Source of the DNA: Strigamia acuminata
Taxonomy: Eukaryota
DNA: 64,000 nt
Reading direction: 5' to 3'
Assembly (NCBI GenBank): GCA_949358305.1
Contig: OX442314.1
Coordinates: 11,966,001 to 12,030,000 of the forward strand
In this document: in pieces, positions 1-52,807 of the stretch
How the letters are laid out: the number at the start of each line of letters is the position of its first letter
How positions within the stretch are numbered: position 1 is the first letter of the stretch
Position numbers and translations under genes: made by a program
The notes under the pieces: generated by a model
Seen by the model: only the letters and a program-made list of their open reading frames with translations
Told to the model about the DNA's origin: nothing
Databases searched by the model: none

Positions 1-1891
1 AAACCTAGTCCACTTGAAACTCGCATCAAGAAAAAAATTATCAATCAAATGCATTTGGCAATTCAAAAAAAAAATGCAATTGCAGATTCACAGAGAGAGA
101 TATTGCAGCTAAAAGAAAAACCTGTCTTGCAACACCTATTCTATTTAATTCTTATATTTATTTCTGTCCTACTAGCATTCTATGTTAGCACAGAGAGAAT
201 ATCATTTTATCTGACTGAACCAACAAGATTTGTAGTAATTATTCAAGAAAATAACACACTTTATTTGCCTAATGTAATTGCATGTATGGATGGATCCCTG
301 ATGATTCACTACAGGAGAAAATACGCCAAAAATATAGGCACGAATGAATGCAAGATCAATTTTATCAATTTAATGAATATGCCACTCCAAGGAAAAAATA
401 TATCAATAGAGAATGTATGGAGACTTCAAACTCCTGTAGTGGACACTGCTAATATGGAAATAGCTAAGAAAGTAAGTTTTAGATCAAATCATTTTCTAGT
501 TAAGATGGCTGGTTATTCAAAATTAAACAGTACAAAACAGCATTGAAAGATCATTTGGCTGACAAGTGAGTTATTGAGCATTACTCAAACCATGTATAAT
601 TTAAAATGAAGTAACAGGTCGTCTACATCAGGGTTTCTTAAACTTTTCCACTCTTTACCACTTTTTCAACCTGATGCACCCCTGTTGCATTTCCGATTCA
701 TTGTATTGAAATTTTGTAATAACGAAAGTTCGTTACATAGAAATAATTCATAATAGGAAAAGTAACGGGATTTCACCTAAAAACTTCATGTTTGTAAATG
801 TTTTTCAGATAACTAGCATAAAAACTAATGTATCTTGGCATAAAAAACCTATGCACACTGGAACATGCTTCGAATCTGATATCGGTACTGTAGTTTCAAA
901 TTTAGTCAACTATCTAAAATTAAATGGTCATAATTTTTCTCAGCTCCAGTGAAATATGCCGGGACTGCCGCAGTAATATTTTTCGGTTTTTTGCCAAACA
1001 GAGATAAAACCTGCAAGACAGACATGTACGAAGTAATGTATCAATTTTGTAAATAAAATACGCTAAATGACGTATATAATCATCCATTTCTGTACATATG
1101 CCAGCAAAAATTGTTGTAAACAATTAATTTCTACTTTTAGATATACTTGAAACAAGGTGAAGGAAAATTACCATCAATTCTCAGAAGTAGAAGAAATATT
1201 AAACAAAACACATTCACCGTGCTTACATTCAAAATGCTAAACGCAAGTGCCTAAATAATTAGAAATTAAAAATAAAATATTAATAAATTATTTTAATTCA
1301 GAACATTCGATTGAACTTGCATTCGCAACCTTGCCTCGACCCCGACAAATACAAAAGATGTCAGGATGATTGTTACCGCAAAAAGATATATAATATCATC
1401 CCGTGCAAGTGCGTTATAAAAAGAATTGAAAAGACTCTGGTTTTTCTTTGTATACTTGCAAATGCAACATAGTTAAATATTTGTTACAATGTGCTTCATA
1501 CATTTCCATATTTTATATTTTTAGGTTACCATTTTTGGACAACATAAACAAGGATAACTGTACCAATGCAAAAGATGCCCTAACCTCAATGGCATTGTTC
1601 ATGAACAGTTCCTTCAAAATTGATTTAATGAAAGATTGTGGGTGTCACCAACCTTGTGAAGAATCAGTGTTCGACACCTTTGTCTACTTTCAACATCCTG
1701 AATCATGGTCACTCAGAGTTCTCGCCATAATTCCAATGAATAATATAATAGAAGAGATTACGCAAATATTATCCTATAATGGAGTTGCACTGTGCTGCGA
1801 TATTGGAAATTGTTTTGCACTAATGCTCGGTCTTTCTATTCTTGCAATTCCAGAACTCTTGCAGAAGTTTTTTTTCCAATACTTAAATTGA
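1..1891 (+). CDS. Divergent DEG/ENaC (amiloride-sensitive-type) channel subunit. Exons <1-471, 809-884, 944-1032, 1141-1242, 1302-1408, 1525-1891. The 5' end may lie upstream of the window.
   Basis: Spliced frame stays open. It contains TM1 (LFYLILIFISVLLAFYV), a post-TM1 LPNVIAC motif (FPxxTxC-like), HTGTCFE, a Cys-rich thumb (CQDDC...PCKLPF...CGCHQPCEE) and TM2 DIGNCFALMLGLSILAIPE with GxS. Confidence 0.85.
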
Positions 1892-1998
1892 ATAAAAAAT
1901 ACTAACCCATTCATATTCCCATCTTAGCATTACAAAGCCACATGAAATTAAAATCAAATAATACCGACCACCTGCCACAAAAGAAATGGGCATTATAC

Positions 1999-2295
1999 AT
2001 TGGGCCAATATTGGACCTGTATCAGGTATCTTGGGTGTCTGCTGGCCAATATAACCAACCTTAAATCAATATTGATACAATAAAATTGGCCAATATTGTG
2101 AATCCAATATTGAACCAATGTTGGCTAAAGATTGGCAAGCCAATATTGGGTTTCCAAGCCTGAGCCAATCTTGGCCTAATATTGGTAGGTGATATTGGTC
2201 CAATATTAACTAACCATTTGTTAGCCAATATTGGCAGAATCGGGAATCCAATATTGGCTAGCCATGCCTGAACCAATATTGGTTTGATATTGGTA
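1999..2295. repeat. Cluster of palindromic CCAATATTGG-like motifs, probably a subterminal remnant of a DNA transposon
   Basis: Many CCAATATTGG/CCAATAT variants in both orientations. Confidence 0.6.
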
Positions 2296-3218
2296 GATAA
2301 TATAAGGTGCGTTTCATAAATAAGCCACCCGCAAAAATTAGCTTCCCAGAAAAACGATTAAAACAATCACAAAACTGTTTGTTGCACGTGAATATTCATC
2401 AAATTTTACACCTTTTACTCATTTCAAAACAATTCTGAACACAAATAACTGCTTTCACCCTACTTTCTATTGTGGCACCATTTATTCCTGAAATTGTATT
2501 TTATTGTACTATTGTCAAAAATATAATCCTACTCCCTTTTCTAAGTTGTACATGTATACATCCGTTGTCCGTGCCCAATATGTATTACACAATACATGTA
2601 CACCCGTAAACAAAAAAAAACTTCCCTTCAGTTTAACTGTTATAAGTTGATCTATCTGGTGGCATAAAAATCCATGGAGATTCAATGACAGCAATCTTGA
2701 CCCAGTCTTTTTCCTTGCCCTAACTGGGCAAATAAAGAAATCATTAAATCTAAATTGAATTTGCCATCTGGCAGATAAACTTAAAACAGATAAACTGAAG
2801 GAAGTTTTTTTGTCCACAGGTGCGCACAAATTTCTTAATATGCCCCAAGTTTCCCAACTATGTATTTTTCATACGGTATCTGAGAAAATGATCAGACCAC
2901 AATTAAATACATTTAGCAATACCACGAGTATAATGTTCCAGTATGAAAAATTTGGCCAGTATCTATTCATTTGTCCTTTAAATGTCTAAATAAAAACATT
3001 AAAAAAATACTCATTTATTCGTATTAAATTGTTCATATTTATTCATTGCGACCAACTTGAATCTTAAATTAATTCATTCATTAGTGATCAAAAAACAATG
3101 GCGCAAAACTACACAGCAATATTCACAATATTACAGTATTTTCATCATCGTCACTTAGAAAAGAAAAAACATAGTTAATACAGTATACTATATAAAAGGA
3201 CATCCGATGGCTACTTAC

Positions 3219-4771
3219 CGTACTAAACCACTTGAATGGTGGATACCAAACCAGGAAATTCTTGGGACAACGTGAAGTTTTGAACGGAGGACAATTTCTT
3301 AATTTGAGTTTTTTATCAAAACATAGTGTAACTCCGTGTATAAAGTAACGCTTGCTTGTCTATATTATACAAGAATTAAAATATGCGGTAATTATAATAT
3401 TTTCCAATTTTTCGTACAAACCTTACCAACTTTCACTTACCTGCAAGTATAGGCACTCCATTAGCGGTCGAACTTTTAGAACTTTTTTAATGGCATATTC
3501 AATGCTACTTACCTGTTGTTCAACATTAATTTTAATAAAAACAATAACTTGTATATAAATTGTGTATTTTAAATTCAATTTACAAACAATGCGAATTCCA
3601 AATCGGGTTCTATTCCAGAGACTTTGAGAATACTGTTTTTAAAACATAAAAAAAAACGGTTTTGTTTTTAAAAAAATAGACTCAAAAAATAAATACGGTA
3701 GGTGCATTCAAAATTTGTGATAACTGAAACCAATATAATCAAACCTACAACATAGAACTATGTAAGCAGTTACTACACGTAACGTTTTTTTGTAATGGGG
3801 AGAAATATCACCAAAATCATACTTAACTATATGAATTTGCGTGAGATTATTTCTTTTAGATGTCTTTTATGCGAGTTCTACAAGTAAATGCAATAAAAAT
3901 CCATTCACTTCAACCAATAAACACATCATGGCCCACTTGTTTTGAATGCACCTGTTGTTTTTGTTACGCACTTGATCATGTTATATTGTTTTATCCATGC
4001 GATACCCTGCTGAAAATATTGCACCTGTGTTTCTAGATTGGGAAGAGTTGCGGCACAAGTGCCATATTTTCTCCATTCGCGAGCCCTAATTAATAATTCT
4101 GCTGTAGATTTGTTTATTTTTTTGGGTATAATCAAACTACCATAAAGTATGTTCCCGTGTTGAGACATCAACATTCGGCCAGTATTTGTTCAAGTCTGCT
4201 TTTATTGTCTAAATAAGAATAAAAATGTTCATTTTAATTCGTCTCTCATTAAAATGTTGCAACCAACTTGAAACCGAGTAATGTCGAATCGACTGTCACT
4301 ACAAAAGGTGGGACCTGGACGTCCCACTAATGAAGGCCTTTAAACAAAGAAAGATTGGTTTATTAAATAGTTGTTTTCAAAAAAAATAATTTTTGCATTG
4401 ATTACCGTATGCCTTGAACTATCCAACTATCAACATTAACATTAATATAGCACTGGTTTCGCTTGGTCACAAGCTAATCGATGAAAAAACAGTTTAAATT
4501 AAATTCCAGCATTGCAAAGATAAAAATAAACTTTACCAGCCAATGGAGACAAGCTACTGGTGGCCATGACTGAGTAAATGTTAAAAATTCCCAAGAATTA
4601 GATACGCTTGTTTTGTGTATTTCTGATCTGAGAAATGAAATTTCTATTATAACACAATAAATGGTGCAATAACTAGAGTAAAACTTACTGATTTGCAATA
4701 CAAATACTTCCATCAACGTAGCCAGAAAGAAAAAAGCAGAGAATAACCAAAATTATAATACATTTGGCCAT
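3219..4771 (-). CDS. Secreted RNase T2-family protein, copy 1. At least 9 exons; 3' end uncertain. CAS I WIVQGIR, CAS II LWAREWRKYGTC.
   Basis: Signal peptide MAKCIIILVILCFFLSGYVDG, then WEFLTFTQSWPPVAC, YWPNV, EWRKYGTCAATLPNLETQVQYF and LCFDKKLKLRNC. GT-AG splice phases are consistent. Confidence 0.9.
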
Positions 4772-6023
4772 GCTAACGAAATGCTGGGGCTGGGCTGTGG
4801 ATTATTGCTAGAATGTCACAATCAGCTTATTTCAAGCTGATTGTGACATTCTAGAACACCCTTTTTCATTGGTAATTAAATAAAGTATAAGTGAAGCAAA
4901 TGAAATAAAGCATATGCTTCTCTCTATCCAAAACAAAATTCGTATACTCCAAACCGATACAACGTTTTCCAAACTCCTATTGGTTGAGCCGTCTCGCTAG
5001 TGTAGTGGTACAAAAAAGTAGCCCATTACACCAGAATTGTAATCTAACTAGGCAAAACAACCAATAAAAAACTAAACCTTTGTTTACCTGCCAAAAGAAA
5101 CCAACAAGCTAAGCTATGCTAACATTGTTTGATTGATTTAGTTGGAAAAGCAGATTTAGCACATTAATAAACATTTTATTACCAATTAAATAAAATCCAT
5201 CATTCTAATCAATTTTTACACCGAAATTCATTAAAAATAAACATAACTACTTTTCCGCGTAGTAGAGCACAGTCCACAGATAGGCGTAATCCAGCTCAAC
5301 CAATAGGAGTTTGGACAATACAAGGCCACCTGATGCCGAAATGTTTCTACAATCATGGTTTTTTTTTTTATTCGAATTCTTGATTATAATTTATCAAAAT
5401 AAATTGTAATCATTCTTGTTTGGTTGTGTTTATTTTTGTGGAATACATAACTTTTGATTTTTTTATTCAGAAAATTACACCAAGGAAAGAGTACACATAA
5501 TTTAAAAAAATTAACTGTATAAACATATGGAAATGTAGTAGAAAATGTATAAAATGATCGTGTCGGTGCCCAATATGTATTACACAATACATGTACATGG
5601 ACATAAATTTCTTAATATGCCCCAAGTTCCCCAACTGTGTCTTTTTCATTCGGTATCTGGGAAAATGATCAGACCACAATTAAATATATTTAGCAATACC
5701 ACGAGTAAATACATTTAGCAATACCAAGTGTTCGGTTTATCGGCATGAAAAATTTGGCCAGTATCTATTCATCTTTCCTTTAAATGTCTAAATAGAAATA
5801 TTTAAAAAAAAATACTCATTTATTCGTATTGAAGTGTTCATATTTATTCACTGCGACCAACTTGAATCTTAAATTAATTCATTCATTAGTGATCAAAAAA
5901 CAATGGCGCAAAACTACACAGCAATATTCACAATATTACAGTATTTTCATCATCGTCACTTAGAAAAGAAAACACACAGTTAATACAGTATACTATATAA
6001 AAGGACATCCGATGGCTACTTAC

Positions 6024-7495
6024 CGAACTAAACCATTTGAGTGGTGGATACCAAATCAAGATATTCCTAGGACAACGTGAAGTTTTGAGCGGAGGACAAT
6101 TTCTTAATTTGAGTTCTCTATCAAAACATAGTTTAACTTGGTGTATATAGAAACTTTTACTTGTCTATATTATACAGGAATTAAAATATGCGGCAATTAT
6201 AATACTTTCCAATTTTTCGTACAAACCTTACCAACTTTCACTTACCTGCAAGTACAGGCACTCAATTCGCGGACGAACATTTAGAACTTTTTTAATGCCT
6301 TCTTCAATGCTACTTGCCTGTTGTTCAACATTAATTTTAATAAAAACAATAACTTGTATATTAATTGTGTATTTTAAATTTAATTTACAAACAATGCGAG
6401 TTCCATATTGGGTTCTATTCCAGCGATTTTGAGAATACTGTTTTTAAAAAACAAAAAAACGGTTTTTCTAAAAAAAAATGACTCAAAAAATTAATACGGT
6501 AGGTGCATTCAAAGTTTTTGAAAACTTAATGGGGAGAAATAGCACAAAAATTATACTTAACTATAATTGTGCGTGAGATTATTTCTTTTTGATGTCTGTT
6601 ATGCAATAAAAATCCATTCATTTTCAACCAATAAACAAATCATGGCCCACTAGTTTTGAATGCACCTGTTGTTTTTGTTACGCACTTGATCATGTTATAT
6701 TGTTTTATCCATGCGATACCCTGCTGAAAATATTGCAACTGTGTTTCTAGATTGGGAAGAATTGCGGCACAAGTGCCATATTTTTCCCATTCGTGAGCCC
6801 TAATTAATAATTCTGCTGTAGATTTGTTTATTTTTTTTGGGTATAATCAAACTACGGTACCATAAATGTTGTTCCGGTACTGTGGCATCAACATTCGGCC
6901 AGTATTTGTTCATGTCTGCTTTTATTGTCTAAATAAGAATAAAAATGTTCATTTTCATTCGTCTCTCATTAAAATGTTGCAACCAACTTGAAACCGAGTA
7001 ATGTCGAATCGATTGTCACTACAAAAGGTGGGACCTTGATCTCCCACTAATGAAGGCCTTTAAAGAAAGAAAGATTGTTTTTTTAAATAGTTGTTTTCAA
7101 AAAAAATAATTTTTGTATTGATTACCGTATGCCATGAATTATCCAACTATCAACAAAAAGATTAATATCGCACCGTTTTTGGTTTTTCGCAATCTAATCG
7201 ATGAAAAATGTTTAAATTAAATTCCAGCATTGCAAAGATAAAAATAAACTTTACCTGCCAACGGAGACAAGCTATTGGTGGCCATGTCTGAGTAAATATT
7301 AAAAATTCCCAAAAATTAGGTAGGTAGTTTTTGTGTATTTCTGACCTGAGAAAAGAAATTTCCATAAAAACACAATAAATGGTGATATAACTAGCGTAAA
7401 ACTTACTGATTTACAATACTTATACTAGTATTTCCATCAACGAAGCCAGAAAGAAAAAAGCAGAGAATAACCAAAAATATAATACATTTGGCCAT
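6024..7495 (-). CDS. Secreted RNase T2-family protein, copy 2. CAS I WIIHGIR, CAS II LWAHEWEKYGTC.
   Basis: Near-identical duplicate of copy 1 with the same exon structure, a signal peptide and FTQTWPPIAC. Confidence 0.9.
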
Positions 7496-8771
7496 GCTAA
7501 CGAAATGCTGCGGCTGGGCTGTGGATTATTGCTAGAATGTCACAATCAGCGCATTTCAAGCTGATTGTGACATTCTAGCACACCCTTTTTCATTGGTAAT
7601 TAAATAAAGTATAAGTGAAGCAAATGAAATAAAGCATACGCCTCTCTATCCAAAAGAAAATTCATAGGAGTATTATCCAAATACAAGGCCACCTGATGTC
7701 GAAATATGTTTCTACAATCTTGGTTTTTATTTTATATAATTAACCAATTCTTGATTATAATTTATCAAAATAAATTGTAATCATTCTTGTTTGGTTGTGT
7801 TTATTTTTGTAAAATACATAACTTTTGATTTTTTTATTCGGAACATTACACAAGAAAAGAGTACACATAATTTAAAAAATTTTACTGTAACTTAAACATA
7901 TGGAAATATAGTATAAAATGTGTAGTTTTTTTAATATGTAATAAATTTATTTATTGTTTTAAATAATTTATTTTGGTTTTGAATTTATATACATTTCTTT
8001 AAAATAACAGTTCCGCATTACGCTTCCTGCAATGGCGGCGAGAATTCAACCACGAACACAATAAAGGTTTATTGTGTTCGTGATTCAACCATTCATGATT
8101 CAACTACCACCGACAAACGGTAATTTCTTATTGTGTGACTCTATTCTGCCCAAATCCGAAGAAATGGCAACTCCTAATCTAACTCTTAAGCCGTGTCCGA
8201 AGTTTCCTAGTGAAGAGTGAACATTAAATAATTTCTTCCACTAATCGAGTCGTTTTCATATCTGGGGAAAGAAAACTCACTCTAAACAAAACAACGATGT
8301 AAAACCGTTTCAAAATATTACCGTTTCACTACACTATTTTCGACCTAGTTACTAATAAAAAATAAAGATATTAATATATACAAAATGATCGCACCTAAAT
8401 TAAAACTATTTAGCTATACCGTATGTAAATGGGTCTTGATGTATCGACGTGAAACGTTTGTCCAGTATCTATTCATTTGTCCTTTCAAATGTGCCTATAA
8501 ATATAAAAATTTTATAAATGCTCCTTTATTAATAGTTATAGCGACCAACTTGAATCTGGTAGAGGAAATATTAAATTATTCCATTCATTAGTAAAGTTGT
8601 ATTCATGTCCTTAAGAAAAGAAATCAGAGTATAATCAATACAACAATGGAGCAAAACGATACAGCAAAACCTACTGTTTCCCCATCAGTAACCACTAAGA
8701 ATAAATAAAAGAAAAAAAAACAACATAAAAACACGCTGGAATACAAAATAAAAGGTACATCCGATTGTTAC

Positions 8772-11047
8772 TGATTTTCTTGTCCGCCTCTTCAAGTGGT
8801 AGATACCAAACCGAAAAATTCGAGGGACAACGTGAGATTTTTCCTGGAGGACAATCTTTCATTCTGAAGTCTTTATCGAAACATAGTTTAATTTTGTGTA
8901 TATAATGACACTTGTTTGCCTATAGAAATTTATGTGTGTACGGTAATTATAATATTTTCCGATTTTTCGAACGAATTTCGTCAACTTTCACTTACCACCA
9001 CGAACTTGCACTCTACTAGCGGTTGAACATGCAGAACTCTTCTAACGGCTAGTTCAATGTCACGTGCCTATGGTTTAACATTAATATATAAATAAAAAAT
9101 AACTTTATATACCTATTATCAGTGTTGTATCGAACGAGAACTAATAGTTCTAATAGAACGCGAACTAGTTCCCCGTTTTGAAAGAACGGGAAAAACGAAC
9201 GAAGTTCGTTTTTTTGACGCGAACTACGTTCTAGTTCAGTTCTAGTTCGTTCACCGGACGTTTTATGTCACAGCCAATCATTGACGATTTCTTTAAGCAT
9301 GGGGCTCGATTGGAGGAATTTATCCAACACACAAAATCGCGGTATTTTTTGAAATTTACGACTTTTTTCTCGATTTTCGAACACGTGGCGACGATCGCCG
9401 AATTTTCGTTTTCGGTTTTTCGTCGTTTCCGGGCCAACGAACGGTCCGTTTGTTGTGTTCTTGGCACCAAATTGTGCGCCAAGACTTCATCTACAAGGTT
9501 TTGTGGATACTTACAATCGTTTTCGGGCCGAAATTTGGACTTTTTCGTCCGTTCGCGATCGGCGCGATCTCGTAGAATCGGTAGACGTCGCCCTGACGTT
9601 TTCCTTCGAAGGCATGGATCTGCTGGTCGATTGTTGGATTGAAACGGGGCTAACACCCCTGAATCTTCTCGATGAATTGTGGAAACGACTGGGGAAAAAC
9701 AAGGAGAATGGAGACCCCACAGTTTACAGTATAAAATGGTGTAAATAAAAATTTGAATTCGCAAAAAAATATTTGTAAAATGAACTGAACTAGAACTGAA
9801 CTAGAACTGAACTAGAACTTAGTTCACTTGGAGTTTTGGGGGTGAACGGGAACTAGAACTAGTTCCCTAAATTGAAAACGGTGATGAACGCGAACTAGAA
9901 CTAGTTCGCGATTTAGTGAACGAGATACAACACTGCCTATTATAAGTTCAGTTTACAAGCACTCCGGAGTATAAACTGGGTTCTATTCCGTAGATTCTAA
10001 GAACACTGTTTTTAAGAAATAAATTTTTTTTAAAAAAACATTACAGAATAGATAGGTGCATTCAATGTTTATGAGAAAGTTTCTGAAAAAATGTTGAATA
10101 ATTGACCAAAATAAGAAAATAATGAAATGTTAAACGTTTTTGTTTGTTTTGTTTGTAGGTTTTCATCATTTTTTTCTTGATTTTTCTTTTGTTTTGAAGG
10201 CACCTATTTTTTTTGTTACGGACTTGCTCATGTTATATCGTTTTACCCATCGGAGACCCTGCTGAAAATATTGCAACTGAGTTTCCAGGGTGGGATGATT
10301 TGCGGAACAAGTGCCATACTTTTCCCATTCGTGAGCCCTAAATTAAAAATTCTGTTTTAGATTTGTTTATTTTTTCGATTTAAACAAACCACCATAAAAA
10401 ATGTTCCGGTTTTCCGGCGTGAATATTTGGCCAATATTGGTTCAAGTCTGCTCTGATTGACTACACGTAAATTAGAACAAAAATGCTCACTTTTGTTCAC
10501 CTATCATAAAATTTTTGAAACCAACTTGAATCTGATCCGTCTGGAATTTATCCTCACTGCAATAGGTAGGACCATGACCTCTCAATAACGTCGGCCTTTC
10601 AATTATTATTTATTTTTTAAGGAGAAAAAACAAAAGGTTTGTTAATTTTATTTACGGTAAATATATTTGTTAATTGTTTACCATATGCCATGAACTGTCC
10701 AACTATCAACAAAACGGTTAATATAGCACTGGTTTTTCACGTTCGCCATCTACTGAATGAAAAATCAGTTTAAATCAAAATCCAACATTTTGATGAGAAA
10801 AAAAATACTTTACCTGCCACTGAAGACAAGCTGTTGGTGGCCATGACTGAGTAAATATAAAAAAATCCCAATTTGGTGAAAAGTCTATGTTGCGTACTTC
10901 CGAACTGAGAAATGATAACTCCATTATAACACAATAATGGTGCAATAACTAGAGTAAAACGTACCGATTTTCAATATTAATACTCCCATCAACGTATCCG
11001 TAAATCAAAAAGCAGAGAATAACCAGAAATATAATACATTTGGCCAT
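8772..11047 (-). CDS. Secreted RNase T2-family protein, copy 3. CAS I WTVHGIW, CAS II LWAHEWEKYGTC. Has a hAT insertion in intron 7.
   Basis: MAKCIIFLVILCFLIYGYVDG, WDFFIFTQSWPPTAC, YWPNI and LCFDKDFRMKDC; all exons in frame. Confidence 0.9.
9120..9935. mobile_element. Non-autonomous hAT element (816 bp)
   Basis: TIR CAGTGTTGTATC/GATACAACACTG, 8-bp TSD CCTATTAT (9112-9119 and 9936-9943), subterminal GAACTAG repeats. Confidence 0.9.
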
Positions 11048-11709
11048 TGTAAAGAAAGGTTGGATGGGCTGTGGACTATTGCTAGAATGTCACAATCAGC
11101 TTGTTCCAAGCTGATTGTGACATTCTAGCACATCCTTATTGGGAATTCAATAAAACTAAAACATATGCCTCTCTCTCCTAAATAAAATTCATAAAATAAG
11201 AGCAGTTTATATTGAAAGTGCAAGGCCATCTGATGTCGAAATGTTTCTACTTGTTCGAATTCTGATTCCAACATATACAACCTTTGTAAATTATAATTAT
11301 TCTTGTAGGTTGTGTTTATTTTGAAGGATACTTAAGTTTGGATTTTTATTCAGAAAAACAATGTTTTTATTAACTCAATTGAAGAATACAGAACTCGACA
11401 TTACACGAGAAAAGCATATTTAAACCGTGTAGTAGTTTTTAAAGTGTAATAAATTGATTTATTGTTTTAAATCATTTATTTTTGCTTCTGAATTTTTTTT
11501 ATGTATATATTTCTTTAAAATAACAGTTCCGCATTTGTCTTCCTGCAATGGCGGCGCGCATTCAACTACAACCAACAAACGGTAATTTCTTATTGTGTGA
11601 CTCTTTTCCGCCCAAATCCGAAGAAACGGCAACTAACCTAAGCTATGCCCAAAGTTTCCCTAGTGAAACAGTGAACATTAAATAATTCCATCCACTAATC
11701 CACTATTCA

Positions 11710-13506
11710 TCATTTGTTGGGACTATTCAGCCGTTTTAGTCGACTCTTTAGCATTTTTTGTCGACTATTCAGCCGTTTTTGTCGACTATTCATCATGTCT
11801 GGGAAAAGAAAACTCACTCAAAACACAATAACAGTGCAAAACCGTTGCAAAACTTACATTTTCTCGACACTATTTTCGACCCTAATGGTAAATCTAAAAA
11901 AAGTTTTAAATATACAAATTATTCGGACGAAGAATATATTCATTTAGCCATTCGGACGATACTCACTGGTGTCAATTTTATCCAATCGGATTGGTGGATA
12001 CCAAACCAAGAGTTTAGTTGGACAATCTGCTGCTGGATCATGACGGTAATGTGGACAACTTTTCAAGCTGAGTGCTTTATCAAAACACAATAAAATTTTG
12101 AAGATGTAGAAAGTGTCGTTTGTCTGTTGAAAAATCGTAAAATATAATCAAATATTTTTCCAGTTCTTTCACTCACCTTCCAGTACTTGCACTCTAGTAG
12201 CGGTTTCACATTCAGGGCGTTCTGAATGGCAGTTTCGATGTCACTTGCCTGTCGTTTAAACGTATAAAAATTGTAATAAATAATAAAAAATTTAGAAATG
12301 TATATTTACAAACACTGGGGCTTCATAACTGGGTTCAATTCCAGAAGTTTTGAGAATACTGCTTTTTTAAAAGAGAGAAAAAAAAATTCTTTAAAAATTA
12401 ATGTCAAAAAAAAAAAATATTTTTCTGACACACAAACGCATGTTAAATCGTTTTAACCACGTGATACCCTGCATGAAATATAGGTATGGTGTGTTTAGCG
12501 CAGGAATAGTTGAAGCACAAGTGCCATATTTGTCCCACTCGTAAGCCCTGTAAAATAATTTGATTTTACATTTGTTTTATTTCCATTATGGATAAACAAA
12601 TACCATAAATAAAGATCCTGTGTTTCGAAAGGAACGTTTGGCCAGTATCTAGTCAATTGTCCTTTAATTGTCTTAATAAAAAATGAAAAAATACTCCATT
12701 AATATTAATATAAATAAATTTATTCATTGCAACCAACTTGAATCCGAGTGCTATCAAATCGATTAGAATCATTGCAGTAGAAAGGACCGACACCGGTGAG
12801 TTGCGAAGGCCTTAATATTTTTTAAGAAAAATTATTTATTTATTTATTGAGTAATCATCAGTGGTGTAGCAATCGAGAGTGCAGCACGTGTGGTTGACAG
12901 GGGAGTTTGTATGTGAGTATAACTTCGGCACAAGTAATTGATTATATAAAAGTTAAAAACAAGTATGTAATACTTCTGTGCAATTGGTCGATTTTTAAAA
13001 ACTTTTGTGAGAGTTTTTTGGGACACTAGGACGTTTGGTCACACTATGCACTTGGGCCTATTGACTTCTTGCTACGCCACTGGTAATCAGAGCTCGAAAT
13101 GGAAAATTTCACAAGTAAAAAAATTATCACGGTACATTTCGAGCCCTGTTAGTAATTACCATATTCCATTAACTATCCAACTGTTTATGATACGATTAGT
13201 ATTGCACTTGTGATGTGAACCGGCAATCTAATCAAAGAGAAGGGCAATCAAAACAACGTGCAAGAATTTCACATTAGCAATACTTTACCTGCCAGCTGAA
13301 ACAAGCTATTGGTGGCCATAGTTGAGAAAACACTAAATAATCCCATGATTTAGAAATGTTGAATTCATGCCTTGGAAAACAAATGACAATAAAAATAAAA
13401 ACGTTAGAAAAATTACTTGAAGTTTTAATTACTCAGTTGCAATGCTAACTGCTTCTTCAGCAAGAAAAAAGAAGACAATCACCATGAATAAAATGTATTT
13501 GGCCAT
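11710..13506 (-). CDS. Secreted RNase T2-family protein, copy 4 (most divergent). CAS I WIVNGIW, CAS II LWAYEWDKYGTC. Ends at 11944 if unspliced, or at 11710 with two extra exons.
   Basis: MAKYILFMVIVFFFLAEEAVS, WDYLVFSQLWPPIAC, YWPNV and LLCFDKALSLKSC; same intron positions as copies 1-3. Confidence 0.88.
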
Positions 13507-13834
13507 AGTCGTAAATAATGCTAGATTGTCACAATCAGCGGATTTGAAGCTGATTGTGACATTTTAGCAATTCATTTTGAATTGATAAAAGAAGTAAATA
13601 AAGCCTCCCCGGGAAGGGGAGGTCTATTTACTTCTGTCGTGTGCCCCATAACAAAAGACATGTGACCGGGGCAAGGGCAAAGTATAATTATACTTATACA
13701 AAACATTCGACTTTAATTTAAACTGAAAAAATATTATTAATATTAATTTTGTAATTTTTAAATTAGATTTGATTAATTTTTGGGCACGATCGGTTAATTT
13801 AAAATTTTGAATTTTTTCAAATTCGTTAAGATAG

Positions 13835-13945
13835 CAGTTCCGCAGTTGTTCTCCTGCATGGCGGTGCGCATTCAAACGTTTCCAAATATCAACAACCCGC
13901 AAACGGCAATTGTTTGACTATTTTCCGTCCAAATCCGAAGAAATT
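13835..13945. promoter_or_regulatory. Putative bidirectional promoter block between T2 copy 4 and HYLS1, with homologous copies at 8008-8172 and 11524-11633
   Basis: Shared CAGTTCCGCA...TCCTGCA(A)TGGCGG...AAACGG(T/C)AATT...CCAAATCCGAAGAAA at three sites, each upstream of a T2 gene. Confidence 0.5.
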
Positions 13946-14055
13946 CTAACTGAGCAGAGTTAGTCGAAGAAATGGCAATTTGCTATCCGATCGATTTATA
14001 CCAGTAAAACAATTAGGAGGACCAAAGAAATTGAAATTGACAATTTGGAGTAAGA

Positions 14056-15566
14056 ATGTCGGACGAAGAGGACGAAGTCAAGGTGGAAAGTGGAGCTAGT
14101 GGACATTTTTCGATGGAAGAAAGAGAACGAACTGAGTCCGCAGCTGAAGGAGACTTTGAAGGCCCGTTTACGGACGATGAAATTCGTGTGCAACTGGAAG
14201 GTTTGGGTTACACTAACATTCCAGATTACCAACTTAGACTATTCAAAGCAGGCAAATTACACACAACATGAGAAATAAATGCAAACAAATGATTAATTTT
14301 CATTTCCTTTTCGGAAAAAATAATTCCACAGATTTGGAGAAATTGATTTGGTTCGAACAGGATAAAAAGCGAAAGCCAAAAGGTAATTAAAATTAACTTT
14401 AGATTTAAAAAATTAGTAATTTTAATTTTAATTTGCTTTTAAACAGCCTCTGCCAACAAATCCGATGAAGTACGATGACGATTGGGCTGTGGGAGTGAAA
14501 TAATTTACCATTTTAAACGTTTTTTCTTGTAAATTATCGTAGGGAGGAAGGAAAAAGTCAACAAAAAAATCTTCTAAAGAGCCATTTTCATCATACAAAG
14601 CCGCGCCTCGAAAAAATTTGGGAACTCAGAGTGCCAGAGAAGATAAACACCGCCAGCAGGAGATCGATGATTGGCCGAGAGGCCGGACTCCTAGTCCACA
14701 CTCTACAGATTCTACCCGTTCAAGGAGTCCAAGATGGCATCGACGTAAAGTTGTTCGGTTTGTACAAAACAAAAAAAATCAATTTTATTTTTATTTTATT
14801 CAATTATTTAATTGTTTAGACACTTTCGAGGCGAGCCTATCATTTGTGAAGAAGCTACCGACACCGACACGGGTAAATGAGTGGAAATTGGCTTTAAATT
14901 TGGGTTGAAATTGTGTTTTTAGACATGACTCTCTTGAGCGATCGTGTGTCGTCTTTGCCACTGGATGATAGTGAGAGTGAACCTGCGTCTTCGCGCCGTC
15001 GAGAACTCACTTGGAGTAGAGATTGTCCTATCGTTAGTGCAGTTGTGTGTAAAAAACAAGCATCGCAAAGAGTAAGAATAAGAAAATAAGGAATTTAAAT
15101 TAGTTTTGTGGTTCGGGAATTTAATGGAATTTGTGTAGTCAAATGTAAGTTCAACGACAGCAAGGAAAAGAGCTCAAGCGAGTTTATATTACGACGAATT
15201 CATAAGATACCTGCCAAAATCATGTGAGAAAATATGAAAGTTGGTTGAAATTAGTAATAAATACATTTAAAACGTAGTTATGGATGACCCGCCGCACCGC
15301 CCACTGAAAAAGACAAGTCCCCACCAACGGTACGACATGTACAGACGAATGTGGAACAATTGTCGAATTCCTGGAGAGGCGTCTGATCAAGAATTACGTT
15401 GGTGTATTCGTGCACTGCTGTTGACTCGGAAGGTTCCGGAAGTGGAGGTTTATGTAAGAAGGTTTTGCTTAGTCTTATCGAGTTGGTTTTTTTTAAATTA
15501 ATTAATTTGTTTTAGGCATTGAAGCGAAAGGATGCAATTGAAAAGGCCAGAAACAGGCAGCGATGA
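14056..15566 (+). CDS. HYLS1: Hydrolethalus syndrome protein 1 homolog (centriole/cilia protein), multi-exon
   Basis: N-terminal FTDDEIRVQLEGLGYTNIPDYQLRLFKADLEKLI and C-terminal HYLS1 box KTSPHQRYDMYRRMWNNCRIPGEASDQELRWCIRALLL; stop TGA at 15564-15566. Confidence 0.8.
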
Positions 15567-15795
15567 ATTTTGTCTTGAAATTTGTTTGTGTGATTTGAAA
15601 TTTACAAGAAAAAAAAATACTATATGCCCTGTGTCATTTTTGCTTACTTTTGGTGAAAAAAAAGAAAGAAATAGAAAAATTTGTCTTGAAGTGAATTAAA
15701 TGTTTTATCACTTGTTTTATTTTATTTTTTTTTATTTTTTAATTTTTTTTTTGAATAAATGAACTACATTATCTAAAAAAAAAATATTCCGGTTT

Positions 15796-17653
15796 TTAAA
15801 TGTTAGGAGGTCTCGGCCGATGGTTGTAATCGAAAGGTTTCTGGAGTTCGCAAGTATCTAATCGATTTAAATGGAATAGAATTCGTTCTTCGATTTTCTC
15901 TACCGCTGCGAGTGTTAGAATCAACGTTTCGTGCTTCAATATGCTCCAAACGTTTAGCCCTAAACATAATTTAAGTGTTATATGGTGAAAAACGAAGATG
16001 AGTCAATAATTTTGTACCGTAAACGGGCATTAGGTTGAAATGCGGGAATTTGTCGGTCGCGAGGGATATATTACGAGGCATAAAATCGGTGCTGAAAAAT
16101 ATCGAAAATATTTAATAAAATTCAATAGAATTTACTAAAATCCAATAGAAATTCAATGAAATTCAATGAAATTCAATGAAATTCAATGAAATTCAATGAA
16201 ATTCAATGAAATTCAATGAAATTCAATGAAATTCAGTAAAATTCAATGAAATTCAGTAAAATTCAATAAAATTCAATGAAATTCAGTAAAATTCAATAAA
16301 ATATAGTGAAATTCAATAAAATTTTGTGAAATTCTATAAAATTTTGTGAAATTCAATAAAATTTTGTGAAATTCAATAAAATTTTGTGAAATTCAATAAA
16401 ATTCAGTAAAATTCAATATAATTCACTATAAATTCCAATAAAAATTCAATATAATCCACTAAATTCCAATAAAAAATCAATATAATTCACTAAATTCCAT
16501 TAAAATTCAATATAATTCACTAAAATTCAATATAATTCACTAAAATTCAATATAATTCACTAAAATTCAATATAATTCACTAAAATTCATAAAAATTCAG
16601 CATAATTCAATAAAATATTTCCTACTCGTCAATAAGCAACACTGAAGTGTTCCAACATCTCTCTGCAGCAAGGTTTTCTAAATACTATATTAAAAATCAA
16701 ATCAAAATCAAAATTAATTATATTTTTTCTTCCATTTTCCCATCATTTCCTTTACATTTTGCTCATCCGTTGGAATCTCTAACGAATTTACAACATGCAG
16801 ATCATCCTGCGCCATCTTACAAGACAGCGCAGAAATCAATCCCTGCAGTCGCGTGTAAAACGGCAACATGTAAAAATAAGGTTTCGGCCCACGCGGTCCA
16901 TGAGCGAGACCACCTCCGATCCACAAAGGCGATCGAATACTTCCGTGACGAGCTCTCCCGGTTCCTTTTTGCGGCCAAGGTTTGCGCCCACCACCCGGCA
17001 TCTCCGCTCTCGTCTGCATTCTTCGCCAATCCTTCAAATAAGCATCAAAGAATTTAATTTCAGCCCAACAAAAACATTATTTTCTTGTCTTTTTACCACA
17101 TGCCGGTACAGATGTTGCCAATTCATGTTTAGATAAAGTAAATCGATTCTAAAATGTAAAAAAACAAATATAATTTTTTTTTTTAAAATGTTTACAAATA
17201 TAAACAATACCTGGGGAAAGCACCCCATATTGTTGGATGCATGTCAACCATTCCTAGTTTTTTCTCTTCAATTGTGTCTAAATTAACGAGCCATGCATAT
17301 CGTCGCGGATTGAATTTGGGCGGCCGTTCCAACACGCGCGATGTGATATGTGACGCAGACGGCAAATCTTCTGCAATTACAATTTAGAAATCGTTTAAAT
17401 CAATAATAAAAAGGTAATTGTGGTCATTTCTTGTGTATTTACTGGATATTTCGGTTTCTGGTCGAGTTAATTCACTCGAAGTCAAGCCCGGTGTTGACGA
17501 AAAAATCTATTTTGATCAAATAATTATACAATTATTAAAAATTATTTTTTTAAAACAGCAATTTCAATGTGTTCTTACTCGTTTTGTTGTAATACTTTTG
17601 AAGCAAGCACCATCTGATTTATAAAATGCACATAATCGTTTTAAATTGTTCAT
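15796..17653 (-). CDS. MRPL4: Mitochondrial ribosomal protein L4 (uL4m), multi-exon
   Basis: [43 protein letters not shown]-terminal exons [29 protein letters not shown]. Confidence 0.93.
16120..16612. repeat. Intronic minisatellite: 10-bp ATTCAATGAA unit grading into a 20-bp TAAAATTCAATATAATTCAC unit
   Basis: Direct tandem repeats inside an MRPL4 intron. Confidence 0.95.

Positions 17654-20631: not shown

Positions 20632-52807
<32,176 letters not shown>

What the first reader, a model, noticed from the sequence alone, without database searches (positions are those of the whole stretch)
3219..13506. Tandem array of four intact, secreted but apparently catalytically dead RNase T2 paralogs
Seen in sequence: four 9-exon genes with signal peptides, open frames and conserved Cys. 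All have KYGTC instead of KHGTC in CAS II. Copy 1 also has CAS I H->Q (WIVQG) and first CAS II H->R. Copy 4 has H->N (WIVNG) and H->Y. Copies 2 and 3 keep those two His. Established: T2 RNases use the His of CAS I (WTIHGLW) and the His of KHGTC (His46 and His109 in RNase Rh) as general acid/base. Non-catalytic T2 proteins are known from plants, and the helminth T2 protein omega-1 is an immune effector. Inference: an expanded animal family of secreted pseudo-RNases kept for a non-enzymatic role such as RNA binding or sequestration, host/immune effector, or venom/glue/eggshell component. The different substitutions in copies 1 and 4 suggest repeated active-site decay with the ORFs preserved.
Basis: partly seen in the sequence, partly recalled or inferred. 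Interest (0 to 1): 0.88.

Follow-up and report, generated by a model that had tools for sequence, protein, structure and literature searches.

The report
Centipede dead-RNase array under positive selection
Four neighbouring copies of an RNase T2 gene, likely from a soil centipede, all lack the enzyme's key catalytic histidine yet keep open reading frames and change faster than neutral DNA, so they are likely working non-enzyme proteins, predicted to act in defence against microbes.

Summary
Four minus-strand RNase T2 genes have nine GT-AG exons each and open frames. All carry Tyr where human RNASET2 has catalytic His118. The closest database protein is from the centipede Strigamia maritima (48%) and lacks a different catalytic His. 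The copies do not behave like pseudogenes. Of 38 family-conserved columns, 30 are invariant, and the only non-conservative losses are four active-site columns. An all-neutral codon model is rejected (p about 1e-8). Copies 1 and 2 differ by 73 amino-acid-changing substitutions against 32 expected from flanking DNA, with 10 synonymous against 9.5. The domains turned basic (pI 8.4-9.4; canonical sister 4.8). A conserved 20-bp palindrome precedes every start codon, and at least two more paralogs lie elsewhere in the genome. Tandem, active-site-decayed T2 paralogs are already described in Nasonia wasps, flatworms and plants, so this is a new variant of a known kind. There are no expression or activity data; the role (microbe binding most likely, reproduction or gland secretion as rivals) is inferred.

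The parts
3219..4771 (-). Copy 1 T2 pseudo-RNase gene; exons 4771-4689, 4627-4537, 4473-4406, 4337-4268, 4208-4141, 4085-3972, 3632-3584, 3512-3441, 3359-3219; CAS I WIVQGIRP, CAS II AREWRKYGTC (Tyr codon 4066-4064)
6024..7495 (-). Copy 2 gene; exons 7495-7407, 7345-7255, 7193-7126, 7057-6988, 6928-6861, 6799-6686, 6437-6389, 6317-6246, 6164-6024; CAS I WIIHGIRP, CAS II AHEWEKYGTC (Tyr codon 6780-6778); open only with the exon-5 donor after 6861
8772..11047 (-). Copy 3 gene; exons 11047-10965, 10904-10814, 10749-10682, 10595-10526, 10460-10393, 10337-10224, 10005-9957, 9067-8996, 8919-8772; CAS I WTVHGIWP intact, CAS II AHEWEKYGTC (Tyr codon 10318-10316)
8624..8694 (-). Candidate exon 10 of copy 3: 23 residues ending in a 15-residue hydrophobic stretch and a stop, like a GPI-anchor signal (label from recall; no predictor run)
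   Evidence: mean hydropathy 2.8; not shown spliced
11967..13506 (-). Copy 4 gene; exons 13506-13433, 13370-13289, 13227-13160, 12810-12738, 12671-12604, 12547-12434, 12358-12310, 12248-12177, 12123-11967; CAS I WIVNGIWP, CAS II AYEWDKYGTC (Tyr codon 12528-12526)
11710..11893 (-). Candidate exons 10 (11893-11858) and 11 (11798-11710) of copy 4, in frame, giving a short Arg/Lys-rich repeated tail
   Evidence: not shown spliced
4808..4854 (.). Conserved palindrome (arms about 20 bp) just 5' of the copy 1 start codon
7530..7580 (.). Same palindrome 5' of copy 2
11080..11130 (.). Same palindrome 5' of copy 3 (24-bp perfect arms)
13519..13569 (.). Same palindrome 5' of copy 4 (two unpaired changes)
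2951..3063 (-). Relic of a copy-4-like gene (end of exon 4, intron 4, start of exon 5), 82% identical to 12637-12744
5753..5868 (-). Same relic behind copy 2 (76%)
8256..8534 (-). Same relic behind copy 3, followed by sequence like copy 4's 3' tail (75-76%)
9120..9935 (.). High-copy MITE-like insertion in intron 7 of copy 3 with terminal inverted ends and an 8-bp target duplication
   Evidence: sequence; summed contig depth in the thousands to tens of thousands against about 320 single-copy

Best explanation
The array encodes four RNase T2-fold proteins that lack the catalytic histidine, are likely exported and enzymatically dead, and are predicted to work as cationic binders of microbes or foreign RNA in a host-microbe arms race. 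Shown: the substitutions, the preserved scaffold, the excess of amino-acid change and the shift to basic charge. Inferred: a His-to-Tyr change on the stem of the family removed the second catalytic His. Once cleavage was gone, the remaining active-site His and Trp decayed copy by copy, while the disulfide scaffold, CAS II Glu and Lys and the cleft walls stayed. Tandem duplication of a gene-plus-relic unit then supplied copies whose surfaces diversify. The fold would bind without cutting, through a positively charged surface, with copy 3 possibly tethered to the cell surface and the others soluble. I put 'functional pseudoenzymes under diversifying selection' at about 0.8 and the antimicrobial or immune target, given that, at about 0.5.
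For: Tyr aligns with catalytic His118 of RNASET2 (catalytic residues His65, His113, Glu114, Lys117, His118 per PMC3458558 passages). Only 1 of 277 other T2 domains with a residue at that column has Tyr (282 domains, 5 gaps). Of 38 columns at least 85% conserved among those domains, 30 are invariant in all four copies, 4 change conservatively, and the 4 non-conservative changes are CAS I His, CAS I Trp and both CAS II His. Codon models on 246 codons: all-neutral rejected against M2a (2dL 40-46, p 2e-9 to 4e-8); M1a against M2a p 2e-4 to 4e-4, with 11-12% of sites at omega about 5. Copy 1/2 branches omega 2.6, p 0.003 against 1. Copy 1 against 2, calibrated on 1434 aligned non-coding bases: 73 nonsynonymous against 31.8 expected, 10 synonymous against 9.5, 0 stops against 3.2, 0 frameshifts against 8.4. 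Informative sites 33:3:3 give no sign of gene conversion. Domain pI 8.4-9.4 against a median of 6.06 in 222 homologous domains (18 of 222 at 8.5 or above) and 4.8 in the canonical sister P0007. Plant T2 proteins that lose the His also shift to basic pI (PMC5598434 passages). Leech T2 binds LPS and agglutinates bacteria, and plant T2s are said to act on pathogens independently of catalysis (PMC7767213 passages). The upstream palindrome arms are conserved far beyond intron divergence, which suggests a maintained regulatory element.
Against: No expression data and no activity assay. Nothing ties the proteins to microbes directly: positive selection, duplication and cationic charge fit reproductive or gland proteins as well. 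Only four sequences went into home-written codon models, and the gene-wide omega is about 0.9-1.0. Copy 2's open frame depends on a donor choice, so its zero-frameshift count is conditional. Gene relics in the array show that copies do die here. The leech precedent is a catalytically intact enzyme. CAS II Glu and Lys are kept in all four copies, and copy 3 differs from a canonical site only by the Tyr, so residual activity is possible.
Confidence: 0.4

Rival explanations
1. Functional pseudo-RNases with a reproductive role (seminal fluid, spermatophore, egg coat or brood secretion) that diversify by sexual selection or conflict, like the mouse epididymal Rnase9-12 cluster in the unrelated RNase A family.
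For: All the selection evidence fits equally. Four clustered RNase A paralogs that keep signal peptide and disulfides, lack the active-site motifs and affect fertility are described (PMC11383283 passages).
Against: No tissue data. The precedent comes from another protein family and from mammals.
Confidence: 0.2
2. Components of forcipule venom or of the defensive sternal-gland secretion of a geophilomorph centipede, recruited as non-enzymatic proteins.
For: The host is likely a centipede. Geophilomorphs have defensive sternal glands (PMC11170834 passage). Tandem duplication, export and positive selection are typical of gland proteins (general knowledge). A role in host immunosuppression was proposed for the Nasonia tandem T2 paralogs (PMC4136927).
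Against: The venom survey covering all five centipede orders, S. maritima included, has 0 occurrences of 'ribonuclease', 'RNase' or 'nuclease' in its main text. Its one held supplement, cut when stored, gave only a chance hit inside a sequence. A surface anchor on copy 3 would suit an ejected secretion poorly. I found no sternal-gland proteome in the listing.
Confidence: 0.13
3. Attenuated but still active RNases: Tyr, Glu, Lys and (in copies 2 and 3) two His support slow or substrate-specific cleavage.
For: CAS II Glu and Lys are invariant in all four copies, and copy 3 keeps every other listed catalytic residue. Attenuated activity was proposed for the Nasonia paralogs.
Against: The Nasonia change is at the auxiliary CAS II His according to the figure legend; here the change is at the His listed as essential (PMC7909312 passage; PMC5598434). 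Copies 1 and 4 have no active-site His left.
Confidence: 0.12
4. Decaying duplicates: genes that recently lost function or evolve with little constraint, not yet broken by chance.
For: Gene-wide omega 0.87-0.99; relic fragments and a MITE insertion in the array; copy 2's ambiguous donor.
Against: All-neutral model rejected. About 26 stops are expected over the tree and 0 are seen; synonymous change matches non-coding change while nonsynonymous change is 2.3-fold higher. Losses target the active site only. A very recent loss of function in one copy cannot be excluded.
Confidence: 0.1

Closest known systems
Nasonia vitripennis tandem RNase T2 paralogs Nvi2-Nvi7 (PMC4136927; passages and section 3 part 4 of 7 read, figure 10 seen as legend only)
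   Same: Arthropod, lineage-specific tandem array of diverged T2 genes, all sharing a His-to-Tyr change in CAS II, with a pseudogene in the array.
   Different: By the text and legend the wasp change hits the auxiliary CAS II His and is expected to attenuate activity. Here Tyr replaces the catalytic CAS II His in all copies, and more residues decay. Nasonia keeps a canonical gene elsewhere; here that is unknown. The passages read report no selection test ('positive selection' 0 occurrences).
Strigamia maritima T1IQR3 (UniRef; P0002)
   Same: Closest protein found, 47-49% identical to the four models; sister to them in both trees (99/93, 85/87); basic domain (pI 8.1); damaged active site.
   Different: Keeps KHGTC and instead has Arg for the CAS I His. 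Its model looks mis-spliced next to that motif and is unverified.
Contarinia nasturtii LOC116337197, domain 1 (P0162)
   Same: Carries the same two changes as copy 2 (HGLRP and HEWLKYGTC); it falls among insect sequences in the tree, so the changes are convergent.
   Different: One domain of a two-domain insect protein whose second domain is canonical; neutral pI (7.0).
Plant non-catalytic T2/S-like proteins such as CalsepRRP and the Poaceae class I clade (PMC5598434, passages)
   Same: Intact secreted T2 fold, loss of catalytic His, shift to basic pI.
   Different: Plant lineages of independent origin; CalsepRRP is a storage protein and, in the PDB sequence, has Lys at the CAS I His and keeps KHGTC.
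Schistosoma and planarian inactive T2 paralogs; omega-1 (PMC4136927, passages)
   Same: Multi-copy animal T2 genes with active-site loss.
   Different: The complete losses named there are at CAS I, and omega-1 needs its RNase activity, so it is not a pseudoenzyme precedent.
Canonical arthropod RNase Oy/X25 housekeeping T2
   Same: Fold-defining columns and disulfide Cys; copy 3's candidate hydrophobic tail resembles the hydrophobic C-ends of several homologs.
   Different: Mostly single-copy in insects, acidic (median pI 6.06) and with His at the catalytic column (276 of 277).

Membership tests
RNase T2 family (PF00445), by descent and fold | Profile match above the curated cut-off | tested here: met
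   Exon 6 of each of the 4 copies scores 29.9-39.6 bits, cut-off 26 (14 fragments scanned, 4 above cut-off, the other exons too short or divergent alone)
RNase T2 family (PF00445), by descent and fold | CAS I and CAS II motifs in order, conserved Cys and core residues | tested here: met
   30 of 38 conserved columns invariant, 8 Cys kept
RNase T2 family (PF00445), by descent and fold | alpha+beta T2 three-dimensional fold | not tested
   No structure was predicted: the spliced proteins are not in the databases; the fold is inferred from sequence
RNase T2 family (PF00445), by descent and fold | Entry into the secretory pathway | tested here: inconclusive
   Hydrophobic N-terminus in 4 of 4; no predictor or protein data
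Catalytically active T2 RNases | Catalytic His in CAS II (His109 of RNase Rh, His118 human) | tested here: not met
   Tyr in 4 of 4
Catalytically active T2 RNases | Catalytic His in CAS I (His46, His65 human) | tested here: inconclusive
   Met in copies 2 and 3, not met in copies 1 (Q) and 4 (N)
Catalytically active T2 RNases | CAS II Glu and Lys | tested here: met
   4 of 4
Catalytically active T2 RNases | Measured RNA cleavage | not testable with these tools
   Needs recombinant protein
Non-catalytic T2 paralogs (Nasonia, flatworm, plant S-like type) | Duplicated, open reading frame, active-site loss, selection on the scaffold | tested here: met
Non-catalytic T2 paralogs (Nasonia, flatworm, plant S-like type) | Expressed | not testable with these tools
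   No RNA holder listed
Non-catalytic T2 paralogs (Nasonia, flatworm, plant S-like type) | A canonical housekeeping T2 retained elsewhere in the genome | tested here: inconclusive
   No whole genome held.
Centipede venom protein families (PMC6878950) | Found in venom proteome | not testable with these tools
   No RNase term in the main text or in the cut supplement; this species' venom was not examined

The most novel reading that the evidence does not exclude
Geophilomorph centipedes have turned RNase T2 into a fast-evolving family of non-catalytic recognition proteins, killing it by different routes in different lineages (CAS II Tyr here, CAS I Arg in Strigamia maritima), and may keep no active T2 at all, although the enzyme is reported as conserved in every protostome genome examined. 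The His-to-Tyr plus Trp-to-Arg pair, reached independently in a gall midge domain, would be a recurrent route from RNA cutter to RNA or surface binder, and the conserved 5' palindrome its family-specific control element.
Probability: 0.1. Interest if true: 0.8.

Novelty: new variant of a known kind. Interest (0 to 1): 0.5.

Why it matters
T2 RNases have reported activities that do not need catalysis, but these are mostly studied in active enzymes. Here a natural animal series separates the two: one shared loss of the catalytic His, graded further decay over four copies, a kept scaffold and measurable positive selection. Copy 3, with a single active-site change, and copy 1, with four, make it directly testable what selection keeps in a T2 fold without cleavage. 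My ten literature searches found no report of such a family in myriapods. The biology is probably lineage-specific, which limits general interest.

Tried and rejected
Whole-genome search for a canonical T2: no genome held. RNA evidence: no RNA holder listed; this says nothing for or against expression. Word-based protein search with the four exon-6 read-throughs: 0 of 74 candidates scored. Search with P0002 alone returned only itself among 570 candidates, so that search is insensitive. Exact pattern for W-x-x-E-W-x-K-Y-G-T-C in metagenome contigs: 0 matches; intron-split genes would be missed. Related-locus scan with P0007 gave 17 loci, of which only its own contig was close. Alignments A3, A4 and A7 misplaced exon fragments and were not used; A5 was sound but not used. 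Rfam scan of 2500-14200: 3 matches at E 0.16-0.89, all on the palindromes and far below gathering scores, so a miRNA reading is not supported; the arms show no compensatory change, so RNA structure against DNA site is undecided. Reading the relic fragments as functional last exons was rejected, because the copy 2 version stops early and they resemble copy 4's exon 5. An AU test did not reject a tree that groups the S. maritima protein with copies 1-3 (p 0.116), so a single origin of the Tyr is the best tree, not proven. Three look-ups of earlier scan findings returned nothing. Structure and complex prediction and the protein atlas were not used.
Full report
Observation. Reading 1-16000 and translating the minus strand shows four T2 RNase genes in an AT-rich window with short introns. 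Splice models give nine exons per copy, 8 of 8 introns GT-AG in each, identical phases, 252-254 codons and no internal stop. Two donor choices matter. Copy 4 uses the donor after 12434, homologous to copy 1's. Copy 2 is open only with the donor after 6861; the next GT, 5 nt on, shifts the frame. Exon 6 of each copy passes the Pfam PF00445 cut-off. Copy 3's HEWEKYGTC aligns without gaps to HEWEKHGTC of human RNASET2, whose catalytic site is His65, His113, Glu114, Lys117 and His118 (PMC3458558, passages), so the Tyr sits at His118. All four use codon TAT. Copy 1 reads QGIRP / REWRKY, copy 2 HGIRP / HEWEKY, copy 3 HGIWP / HEWEKY and copy 4 NGIWP / YEWDKY. A tblastn of the models against the window found no further T2 gene, only short relics.

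Surroundings. The neighbours are ordinary animal genes: a DEG/ENaC exon, HYLS1, mitochondrial-type L4, KIN17, RPB7 and an MFS transporter (10 of 18 fragments matched a family). Behind each of copies 1-3 lies a relic most like copy 4's exon 4-5 junction, so the unit that duplicated was a gene plus a decayed neighbour: birth and death. Copy 3 has a candidate tenth exon with a hydrophobic end, the matching region in copies 1 and 2 would start with a stop, and copy 4 has candidate exons for a basic tail; none is shown spliced. A palindrome with 20-bp arms lies 13-37 nt before each start codon. Its arms differ at 0-2 of 40 positions between copies while the 9-nt loop differs at 2-5; for five of six pairs this is far below intron divergence (P 1e-5 to 2e-4; the close pair 1/2 gives 0.10). 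As RNA it folds with z -6 to -10. The core 13-mer occurs exactly 8 times in the window, all in these palindromes, plus one 2-mismatch match elsewhere, and Rfam gives nothing near a gathering score.

Other copies. No genome is held and no RNA holder is listed. Contigs of runs X1 and X2 cover the array. They also include roughly single-copy contigs that match T2 exons but differ from all four window copies: an in-frame exon 4 variant (tables 5 and 5c, translated by eye) and two long contigs over exons 5-6 with different indels (records 3 and 6). So at least two, probably three or more, paralogs lie elsewhere.

Relatives. A profile of exons 2, 4 and 6 found 251 proteins among 1.84 billion representatives, of which 150 were returned. 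A second search gave 957, of which 120 were returned. The best match to every model is P0002, Strigamia maritima T1IQR3 (47-49%), then the unnamed P0007 (40-44%). In a 30-row tree the four copies form a clade (99/96), sister to T1IQR3 (99/93), then P0007 (100/97), near a millipede protein. With active-site columns masked the order holds at lower support (93/93 and 85/87), and an AU test does not reject placing T1IQR3 with copies 1-3 (p 0.116). The host is therefore likely a geophilomorph centipede, by inference. T1IQR3 keeps KHGTC but has Arg at the CAS I His; P0007 is canonical. Among 282 domains from the 268 fetched proteins, the catalytic CAS II column is His in 276, Tyr in 1 and a gap in 5, although the first profile was built from Tyr-bearing rows. 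The one Tyr is in domain 1 of a Contarinia nasturtii protein and comes with the same Trp-to-Arg change as copy 2. Both changes are single transitions, so convergence may reflect mutation ease as much as function.

Gene or pseudogene. Pairwise dN/dS is 2.14 for copies 1/2 (bootstrap 1.15-4.6), 0.94-1.13 against copy 3 and 0.67-0.69 against copy 4. The gene-wide value near 1 hides heterogeneity. In home-written codon models on 246 gap-free codons, an all-neutral model is rejected and a positively selected class (11-12% of sites, omega about 5) improves on the nearly neutral model under two parameterisations (p 2e-4 and 4e-4). The copy 1/2 branches have omega 2.6 (p 0.003), the rest 0.78, and informative sites show no conversion. 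An independent calibration on 1434 non-coding bases (79 differences, 19 gaps) predicts 31.8 nonsynonymous, 9.5 synonymous, 3.2 nonsense and 8.4 frameshift changes between copies 1 and 2; observed are 73, 10, 0 and 0, the last conditional on copy 2's donor. Of 38 family-conserved columns, 30 are invariant in all copies and the four non-conservative losses are all active-site residues. The domains are basic (pI 8.4-9.4) against 4.8 for P0007 and a median of 6.06 over 222 domains. Limits: four sequences, my own implementation, no polymorphism data.

Mechanism. Shown: loss of the catalytic His, a kept scaffold, diversifying change and a charge shift. Inferred from established T2 chemistry (PMC7909312 passage; PMC5598434 passages): little or no cleavage. 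Inferred further: the proteins are exported and bind a target that itself evolves. I favour microbial surfaces or foreign RNA, because cationic charge, rapid duplication and positive selection fit immune effectors and a leech T2 binds LPS and clumps bacteria (PMC7767213, passages). Reproduction (PMC11383283, passages) and gland secretion remain open. The venom survey that includes S. maritima mentions no RNase (PMC6878950: main-text search; one supplement, cut when stored, so unseen parts may bear on this). PMC11170834 (one passage) only establishes that geophilomorphs have defensive sternal glands.

Comparison and novelty. PMC4136927 (passages and section 3 part 4 of 7) already describes lineage-specific T2 duplications with active-site loss in protostomes, including six tandem Nasonia genes that share a CAS II His-to-Tyr change. 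By its figure legend that change is at the auxiliary His; I did not see the figure itself. The family belongs to RNase T2 by descent, fails the test for active T2 RNases, and works like the known non-catalytic T2 paralogs. What differs here is the catalytic-His substitution fixed across the array, the graded further decay, the measured positive selection, the myriapod host and the 5' palindrome. Searches for centipede plus T2 RNase gave 0 papers and 1 unrelated paper (listing only); searches listed no report of this family. The library lacks most subscription journals.

Verdict. A real, functional-looking pseudoenzyme array and a new variant of a known kind. Interest 0.5.

Noticed in passing
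window 4808-4854, 7530-7580, 11080-11130, 13519-13569: Family-specific palindrome with 20-bp arms just before each start codon; arms conserved, loop variable, no compensatory changes, no Rfam family, not high-copy. It could be a DNA binding site, a 5' UTR hairpin or a small-RNA precursor; unexplained.
   Followed up: partly
P0162 (Contarinia nasturtii LOC116337197), residues 12-273: First domain of a two-domain T2 carries the same CAS II His-to-Tyr and CAS I Trp-to-Arg pair as copy 2; the second domain is canonical.
   Followed up: partly
P0002 (S. maritima T1IQR3) and P0161 (Adelges cooleyi) domain 2: Both have Arg for the CAS I His; P0161 domain 2 also has Asp for the first CAS II His. T1IQR3 was the only S. 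maritima T2 among the named hits shown (120 of 957, 10 look-ups).
   Followed up: partly
window 9120-9935: High-copy MITE-like insertion with an 8-bp target duplication in intron 7 of copy 3 (hAT-like by recall).
   Followed up: partly
window about 12860-13090: Insertion in intron 3 of copy 4 (349 nt against 68-86 in the other copies) with short inverted ends seen by eye.
   Followed up: no
window 4943-5318: Very high-copy repeat between copies 1 and 2 (summed depth up to 320,000 against about 320), with inverted arms at 4965-4989 and 5294-5318 and related copies near 39500-39800.
   Followed up: no
window 1430-1891 (+) and short exons upstream: 3' part of a DEG/ENaC (amiloride-sensitive channel) gene, Pfam ASC, facing the array tail to tail.
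   Followed up: no
window 30830-31189 (-) and 33334-33624 (+): Fragments of a RIO kinase and a DEAD-box helicase that look broken (degenerate motifs, early stop); possibly pseudogenes or transposon-carried pieces.
   Followed up: no
window 16097-16619, 24343-24896, 28138-28580, 35015-35917: Minisatellite arrays; several long palindromic elements also occur at about 30080-30584, 31735-32011 and 36740-37012.
   Followed up: no
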